From: Eledone cirrhosa
Taxonomy: Eukaryota
Assembly: GCA_964016885.1 (NCBI GenBank)
Contig: OZ024760.1
Location: 15,438,001 to 15,502,000, forward strand
DNA: 64,000 nt
Direction of reading: 5' to 3'
Made by a program: the position numbers and the translations under genes. Shown here one piece after another: positions 38,271-38,499 of this stretch (positions are counted from its first letter, which is position 1; every line of letters begins with the position of its first letter). The notes below the pieces were generated by a model, which saw only the letters and a list, made by a program, of their open reading frames with translations, made no database searches and had not been told where the DNA came from.

Positions 38271-38457
38271 CGAAGGAAATGTGGTAAGGAACCAGGTGGA
38301 CCATAACGCACCAAAGTACTCAATACTTGGGGTAGTAGAGTGGGTAATAGGAACCAGTAAGATCCCGACGGCTGAGCTCAAGCCGTTTCGACGGCTAATT
38401 CAGTCCAGAATTAGCCGTCGAAACGGCTTGAGCTCAGCCGTCGGGATCTTACTGGTT

Positions 38458-38499
<42 letters not shown>

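What the first reader, a model, noticed from the sequence alone, without database searches (positions are those of the whole stretch)
38347..38462. Palindromes repeatedly centred on hammerhead stem II: a fold-back priming signature
Three independent copies (38347-38462, 39917-40032, 51145-51293) read [3' half reversed]-GACGGCUAWUY(loop)RAWUAGCCGUC-GAAACGGCU..GCCGUC. The CUGANGA half is replaced by a mirror copy of the GAAAC/stem III half. The same geometry occurs in other families near 755-790, 38563-38678, 56850-57673 and 58478-58513. Inference: cDNA ending in stem II snaps back and self-primes, producing ribozyme-dead, MITE-like palindromes. Recurrence with copy-specific substitutions argues against an artefact.
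Basis: partly seen in the sequence, partly recalled or inferred. Interest (0 to 1): 0.75.

Follow-up and report, generated by a model that had tools for sequence, protein, structure and literature searches.

The report
Back-to-back Penelope stubs with cap marks
These palindromes are real and number over ten thousand in this animal genome; each is two short, back-to-back pieces of a young Penelope-type jumping gene, and an extra G at both inner ends suggests the enzyme likely copied the capped start of its RNA twice, once from each side of a DNA cut, rather than folding one copy back on itself.

Summary
The three palindromes are real and belong to a very large family (12,856 exact tailed hits). 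The proposed mechanism fails. The perfect 'stem II' is only the mirror; the native ~32-nt loop II was absent from 10 of 10 inspected candidate snap-back products (39 hits), and other families turn upstream of intact ribozymes. Arms instead stop at an Inr-like A in loop II, 29 nt behind a TATA-like box, and carry an untemplated G there: on both arms, 0-3 nt apart, in 252 elements against 8 for the A control. One arm is tailed and one tailless (102 of 114), either may be longer, and both share a subfamily (66 of 69). Best reading: two cDNAs primed on one RNA from both target ends run off its capped 5' end and are joined. The scan already noted two-ended priming and the Hydra clade on other DNA; the cap mark appears new. 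No RNA data.

The parts
38270..38401 (-). Copy 1, tailed arm: hammerhead 3' half plus 76-nt tail, ends in (AT)n; stops 12 nt upstream of GAAAC
   Evidence: matches parent L184
38402..38459 (+). Copy 1, tailless arm: starts at the A of the Inr-like site (38402), GAAAC at 38420, predicted cleavage site after 38442, ends at TTCC before (AT)n; longer than the tailed arm
39840..39970 (-). Copy 2, tailed arm (other subfamily)
39971..40029 (+). Copy 2, tailless arm starting at the Inr-like site (A at 39972); longer than the tailed arm
51150..51206 (-). Copy 3, tailless arm
51207..51233 (.). Copy 3 junction filler: a templated repeat of the central hairpin, ending in the G (51233) that precedes the Inr-like A
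   Evidence: similar fillers in 9 of 18 junctions with 6 nt or more
51234..51371 (+). Copy 3, tailed arm starting exactly at the Inr-like A
45972..46122 (+). Fourth copy of the family: tailed arm with only a short mirror, partner arm missing
38496..38682 (.). Adjacent one-tailed palindrome of another family (23,691 exact arm hits), same layout, inserted in the same (AT)n tract
52810..53150 (.). Palindrome of another family with CTGATGA kept in both arms; centre about 60 nt upstream of the core
56830..57700 (.). Palindrome of another family with CTGAGGA kept in both arms; centre in a 19-bp tandem array

Best explanation
Each palindrome is a head-to-head pair of short pieces of a young Hydra-type Penelope-like element, one tailed and one tailless, that likely arose when two reverse transcriptases primed from the two ends of a cut in (AT)n, copied the same RNA from its two start sites to its capped 5' end, and the two cDNAs were joined. 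Shown: parent element, arm ends, one-tail rule, subfamily match, untemplated G, junction types. Inferred: that the stop point is the transcription start (it lies inside loop II of the hammerhead, so the 5' end of the RNA holds only half a ribozyme), that the G copies the cap, that one RNA serves both arms, and that the short elements cannot spread by themselves because they lack the TATA-like box and the hairpin behind the tail.
For: Parent: RT and GIY-YIG frame upstream of the hammerhead, many 784-aa open frames and tandems of period 3531, inverted copy plus pLTR plus ORF in L184. One-tail rule: 102 of 114 tailed/tailless, 0 two-tailed, 0 zero-tailed, 12 unclear. Same subfamily in both arms 66 of 69 against a mean of 13 for random pairing. 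Stop point: 82 of 99 arms end within 26 nt upstream of GAAAC, 2 between 27 and 59 nt, 15 further. Promoter-like context: TT/TC-A-GT with a TATA-like box at -29; a second family has TATAAA at -30 and 16 of 27 arms ending within 0-4 nt of its own start, none at 5-11 nt. Untemplated G: never at that place in 49 parents; after a C, G 84 and A 16 in the first 100 of 583 rows; both arms G in 252 elements, both arms A in 8, with 0-1 nt between in 33 of the first 50. Junctions: microhomology 53, filler 41, blunt 16 of 110. 7 of 7 arms that carry a short piece of the 5' UTR/ORF end at or before the stop point. Literature: both strands cut and extended, two internal start sites bound the tail (PMC11167929); start site in the pLTR (PMC2377424, PMC8557442); extra G marks capped ends of L1 inserts (PMC11702581).
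Against: No RNA was seen, so start site and cap are inferred from DNA. 14 of 16 copies with a full ORF run on past the supposed start into upstream sequence, so long copies need another template (tandem or circular RNA) or an efficient jump. The commonest end of the longer arm is one base short of the A (33 of 110), and 26 run 2 nt or more beyond it, part of which is chance likeness of the mirror. The tailed arm is longer more often (55 against 34), and 19 of 110 junctions fit a snap-back (12 are the mirror class). 5-6 of 23 G cases inspected are explained by the partner arm. In the neighbouring family about 38 of 63 arms pass its candidate start and no TATA box is evident.
Confidence: 0.66

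Rival explanations
1. Two-ended priming is right, but the stop point is not the capped start: it is a nick or an RT stall in loop II, and the G is terminal-transferase addition.
For: Ends spread over about 12 nt and peak one base short of the A; most full-ORF copies pass the site; the site follows a pyrimidine in a large loop.
Against: G is specific to that position: 84:16 over A against 5:7 three bases on and 14:16 at other arm ends; TATA at -29/-30 in two unrelated families, one of which stops about 40 nt upstream of its ribozyme.
Confidence: 0.17
2. One cDNA folds back and self-primes (the reader's idea moved from stem II to a 4-bp mini-hairpin at the end of loop II; PMC3846280 proposes self-priming, on an antisense template).
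For: Arms share a subfamily (66 of 69); 19 of 110 junctions fit; the tailed arm is longer in 55 of 110; templated hairpin fillers occur in 9 of 18 long fillers, including window copy 3; some parents carry the mini-hairpin.
Against: Tailless arm longer in 34 of 110; loop 0-2 nt in 40 of 110; fillers in 41 of 110; G on both arms in 252 elements; one pair with arms of two subfamilies differing at three sites (L116); 0 of 10 inspected stem II snap-back candidates real.
Confidence: 0.1
3. A few palindromic masters spread as non-autonomous MITE-like units, and centres decayed later.
For: Length peak at a 30-nt centre; recurrent centre types.
Against: 80 distinct centres in 110; the same centre type recurs in different subfamilies and in both orientations to the tail; subfamily signatures match long ORF-bearing parents; long palindromes with arms of 500-1550 nt follow the same layout.
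Confidence: 0.05
4. Assembly or library artefact (inverted chimeras).
For: No contig of the four public runs spans a whole palindrome (short-word contigs are not expected to).
Against: Arms have aged separately (117 private against 4 shared differences in 2860 sites); fixed biological ends; head-to-head joints landing at 38401-38406 in run X1 (may be the assembled sample).
Confidence: 0.02

Closest known systems
Hydra clade of C-terminal EN+ Penelope-like elements (Craig et al. 2021, PMC8557442; sections 10 and 11 read, other passages seen)
   Same: Single ORF with RT and C-terminal GIY-YIG, DKT, CxCx5C linker, CxxC and CxH, (TA)n target, hammerhead in the pLTR, partial tandems, inverted 5'-truncated copy, one-sided tail
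   Different: Unit 3.5 kb (clade generally under 3 kb), RWR for RWK, tail 76-80 nt rather than 30-40, core mostly U3-A8 or C3.A8, and most insertions are ~190-nt stubs
Inverted pLTR palindromes of Adineta vaga Penelope elements (PMC3846280; passages seen)
   Same: Head-to-head inverted pLTRs with palindromes at the junction and a tail on one side
   Different: That paper favours self-priming on an antisense template; here junction statistics and a G on both arms favour two sense-templated cDNAs
Poseidon_Ac in vitro (Frangieh et al. 2024, PMC11167929; parts 1-2 of 4 of the text read)
   Same: Both DNA strands cut and extended, AT-rich target, two internal RT start sites that bound the tail, ribozyme cleavage not needed for insertion
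   Different: Other clade; joining of the two cDNAs and cap copying were not examined in the parts read
L1 twin priming and the extra G of full-length inserts (PMC11702581; passages seen)
   Same: Second priming from the other DNA end, end-joining at the inversion junction, G opposite the cap
   Different: In L1 the two cDNAs cover adjacent parts of the RNA; here both cover the same 5' stretch, which gives a palindrome
Metazoan non-LTR retrozymes (bioRxiv 10.64898/2026.07.22.740005; part 1 of 5 read)
   Same: Type I hammerhead, Penelope-derived, non-coding
   Different: Retrozymes are tandem units with whole ribozymes; these stubs hold half a ribozyme and trace to a coding parent

Membership tests
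EN+ Penelope-like element (parent) | One ORF with RT and GIY-YIG endonuclease | tested here: met
   719 aa from ATG with RT motifs and VIY..YIG; Atlas neighbours 0.96-0.99 with GIY-YIG, RVT_1, HTH_animal on part of their members; best homolog carries PF01541. Pfam and PDB gave 0 direct hits.
EN+ Penelope-like element (parent) | pLTR / partial tandem, inverted 5'-truncated copy, one-sided tail | tested here: met
   L184 layout, tandems of period 3531, 102 of 114 one-tailed
EN+ Penelope-like element (parent) | Type I hammerhead in the pLTR | tested here: met
   Stems I-III and core in 49 parsed copies; U3-A8 25, C3.A8 15, C3-G8 6 (selected for it), other 3; U3-A8 known in PLEs (PMC4209133). The predicted fold is no more stable than shuffles (z 0.25).
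EN+ Penelope-like element (parent) | Self-cleavage | not testable with these tools
   No peak of arm ends at the cleavage site in a sample biased against it
Hydra clade | DKT, RWK, no GxKF/Y, CxCx5C linker, CxxC and CxH flanking E and N | tested here: met
   DKT, RWR, no GxKF/Y, CNCPDRSIC, CNLC, CKH
Hydra clade | Insertion into (TA)n | tested here: met
   End classes
Hydra clade | Generally under 3 kb | tested here: not met
   Unit 3531 nt; the paper words this as a tendency
Hydra clade | RT tree placement; absence of CCHH | not tested
   No reference set was in hand
MITE | Fixed terminal inverted repeats of a DNA transposon, clonal copies | tested here: not met
   One-sided tail, variable centres, retroelement parent
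Non-LTR retrozyme | Tandem units each with a complete hammerhead | tested here: not met
   Stubs lack the 5' half of the core and are inverted pairs
Capped Pol II start site in loop II | Capped RNA 5' ends at the A | not testable with these tools
   Indirect only: G and TATA spacing

The most novel reading that the evidence does not exclude
Penelope reverse transcription starts near the 5' end of its own capped mRNA and first makes a strong-stop cDNA, twice per RNA and from both DNA ends; the start site is placed inside the hammerhead so the 5' end keeps its priming sites while only the downstream copy can cleave. Long copies and pseudo-LTRs then need a jump or a tandem/circular template, and the tens of thousands of 190-nt palindromes are the trapped strong-stop intermediates of Penelope replication.
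Probability: 0.3. Interest if true: 0.78.

Novelty: new variant of a known kind. Interest (0 to 1): 0.52.

Why it matters
How Penelope-like elements, the closest mobile relatives of telomerase, make their inverted and pseudo-LTR structures is named as open in PMC8557442, and the explanation in print is self-priming (PMC3846280). Over ten thousand minimal products with a G on both inner ends argue for two cDNAs from one capped RNA, map a promoter to one base without RNA data, and give exact products to look for in the existing in vitro system. For annotation, such stubs would be mislabelled MITEs or microRNA hairpins (Rfam gave only sub-threshold miRNA hits in the 150 rows listed of 485).

Tried and rejected
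Rfam scan of the window: no hammerhead among the 150 rows listed of 485, all below gathering score. The inverted-repeat tool was swamped by (AT)n. First parent search (44 hits) returned junction look-alikes, since the loop is longer than the gap allowed and young copies read U3-A8. The extent parse was too permissive and mixed in loci chosen for the G; it was replaced on 140 loci not chosen for centre type, of which those were chosen to have a tail, so zero-tailed palindromes are under-sampled (all loci: 2 zero-tailed, 1 two-tailed, 163 one-tailed). Control (G 34, A 66) is contaminated by point mutants of longer arms; searches are cleaner. RNA runs: no RNA holder listed. Runs X5 and X6 laid only 2 contigs each and were not used as evidence. 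My early idea that all families turn at an AGT motif failed for the family at 52923 and others. A constant-rate strand jump at the cap does not fit 14 of 16 full-ORF copies running on. A hot spot at the ribozyme cleavage site: only two units in L280 among 426 arms, in a biased sample. No paper on cap-derived G or capped run-off cDNA in Penelope elements appeared in searches (open-access library only); an octopus repeat paper had no hammerhead or palindrome passage (PMC13282606). Supplements of PMC8557442, which list Hydra families, were not read and may hold this family.

Full report
Observation. The three palindromes are at the stated places: arms of 54-62 bp, loops of 6, 8 and 28 nt; copy 1 folds at z -22.7 against shuffles. 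The family is huge: 50,438 exact hits to a 28-nt arm pattern and 12,856 to a pattern that needs mirror, arm and tail, with 0 control hits. The arms have aged separately (117 private against 4 shared differences in 110 pairs), and head-to-head joints landing at 38401-38406 stand in contigs of run X1 (possibly the assembled sample), so an artefact is unlikely.

Parent. A copy whose mirror arm ran further (L057) gave the upstream sequence; 7 loci carry CTGANGA before it. Upstream lie about 1.2 kb of UTR and an RT plus GIY-YIG frame. Among 141 scored of 58,334 candidates many have open frames of 784-795 aa, some in tandems of period 3531. L184 shows inverted tailed copy, pLTR, ORF and tailless end. 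The 719-aa protein has DKT, RWR, CxCx5C, CxxC and CxH and no GxKF/Y, the marks of the Hydra clade (PMC8557442 section 11); Pfam and PDB gave nothing, Atlas and homolog lists point to GIY-YIG/RT proteins of animals. No tree was built. Of 49 parsed through-ribozyme copies 25 have a U3-A8 core, 15 a mismatched C3.A8, 6 C3-G8 (from loci selected for it) and 3 others; U3-A8 is known in PLEs (PMC4209133). Native stem II is about 9 bp around a ~32-nt loop.

Snap-back at stem II would keep loop II between the arms. The pattern for that product has 39 hits, and none of the 10 inspected keeps the loop. Of 99 arms in loci from the arm-only search, 82 end within 26 nt upstream of GAAAC, 2 at 27-59 nt, 1 at 60 and 14 beyond the ribozyme; 80 of the 84 short ones have inverted family sequence upstream. 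In 110 oriented palindromes from 140 loci not chosen for centre type, the tailed arm is longer in 55, the tailless in 34, equal in 21; fold-back of a tailed first strand cannot give the second class, which includes window copies 1 and 2. Loops of 0-2 nt occur in 40, fillers in 41, microhomology in 53; 19 fit a snap-back and 12 are its mirror class. Nine of 18 long fillers repeat arm sequence, so local templated synthesis does occur at junctions, as in copy 3. In other families the centre lies upstream of an intact core (families of 15, 11, 7, 4 and 4 among 346 palindromes, which include repeats from overlapping loci), as at 52810-53150 and 56830-57700.

What fixes the outer ends. 102 of 114 palindromes have one tailed and one tailless arm, none two or none of the tails, 12 unclear (part of the sample was chosen to have a tail; over all loci 163, 1 and 2). 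Tailless arms end at TTCC and tailed arms at the tail end. Both arms carry the same subfamily signature in 66 of 69 pairs, against 13 by chance; one pair differs at three sites. This fits two primings at different sites of one RNA, as the two start sites and two-strand extension of Poseidon_Ac would allow (PMC11167929). Earlier notes of this scan reached this reading on other DNA and pointed to a bulged hairpin behind each end; both fold here in L184 (the second at z -3.2, the first no better than shuffles), and the second lies beyond the tail, so it is absent from the stubs.

What fixes the centre. The inner ends pile up at TT-A-GT or TC-A-GT in loop II, which resembles an initiator (consensus recalled), with TATTTAAA at -29. 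An unrelated family stops about 40 nt upstream of its ribozyme at CC-A-GAT with TATAAA at -30: 16 of 27 arms end within 0-4 nt, none at 5-11, 11 run on. No parent has G before the A (0 of 49), yet 4,854 arms do. After a C, which neither parent nor most mirrors explain, the base is G in 84 and A in 16 of the first 100 of 583 rows (hand count); of 23 G cases read in context 5-6 are explained by the partner arm. Controls: G 5, A 7 three bases on; G 14, A 16 at other arm ends; G 34, A 66 in a contaminated control. G on both arms within 0-3 nt occurs in 252 elements, A on both arms in 8; 33 of the first 50 have 0-1 nt between, too tight for one strand to prime on itself. An extra G marks capped 5' ends of L1 inserts (PMC11702581), and Penelope and Chlamys start inside the pLTR (PMC2377424; PMC8557442). 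Of 30 of the 306 tail-to-UTR junctions, all 7 with a short ORF piece and an arm end at or before the site, one full copy starts there, and one short tandem restarts there.

Against. 14 of 16 full-ORF copies run on past the site (4 in one array), so long copies need tandem or circular templates or an efficient jump. The modal end is one base short of the A. The neighbouring family mostly passes its candidate start. No RNA evidence was obtained.

Verdict. Real, abundant, and a product of known Penelope biology: inverted truncated copies and one-sided tails are described (PMC8557442), and self-priming was already proposed for them (PMC3846280). The addition here is DNA evidence that both arms are run-off copies to a likely capped start site inside the ribozyme loop, which I did not find in the paper searches listed under Tried and rejected nor in four look-ups of the scan's notes. 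Interest 0.52.

Noticed in passing
L247-L255, L273, L279 (parents): A subfamily with long open frames has a mismatched C3.A8 hammerhead core (15 of 49 parsed copies), predicted from general hammerhead knowledge to cleave poorly, yet it made many stubs.
   Followed up: partly
L184:3810-3849: The TATA-like box overlaps the 5' strand of stem II, so promoter and ribozyme share bases.
   Followed up: partly
L280: Two tandem units both start exactly at the predicted ribozyme cleavage site; possible trace of a cleaved RNA.
   Followed up: partly
L258/L259: Short tandem in which a unit of arm, tail and 116 nt of UTR/ORF restarts at the putative start site; looks like a template jump at the RNA 5' end.
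   Followed up: no
window 15182-15233 (-), 5682-5747, 5854-5930, 49566-49636 (-), 54644-54714 (-), 60391-60456, 62585-62640: Seven complete type I hammerheads of other families lie in the window.
   Followed up: no
window 38558-38682 family: Its only core-like stretch reads CAGAAGA (A at position 4) before a 3-bp stem and GAAA; 23,691 exact arm hits.
   Followed up: partly
window 55330-55800, 1157-1265, 50831-50958, 30945-31111: Further palindromic insertions of other families with arms of 53-168 bp or more; the one at 30945 is centred on (AT)n, that is tail to tail.
   Followed up: no
L156: A main-family arm joined directly to a piece of the neighbouring family.
   Followed up: no
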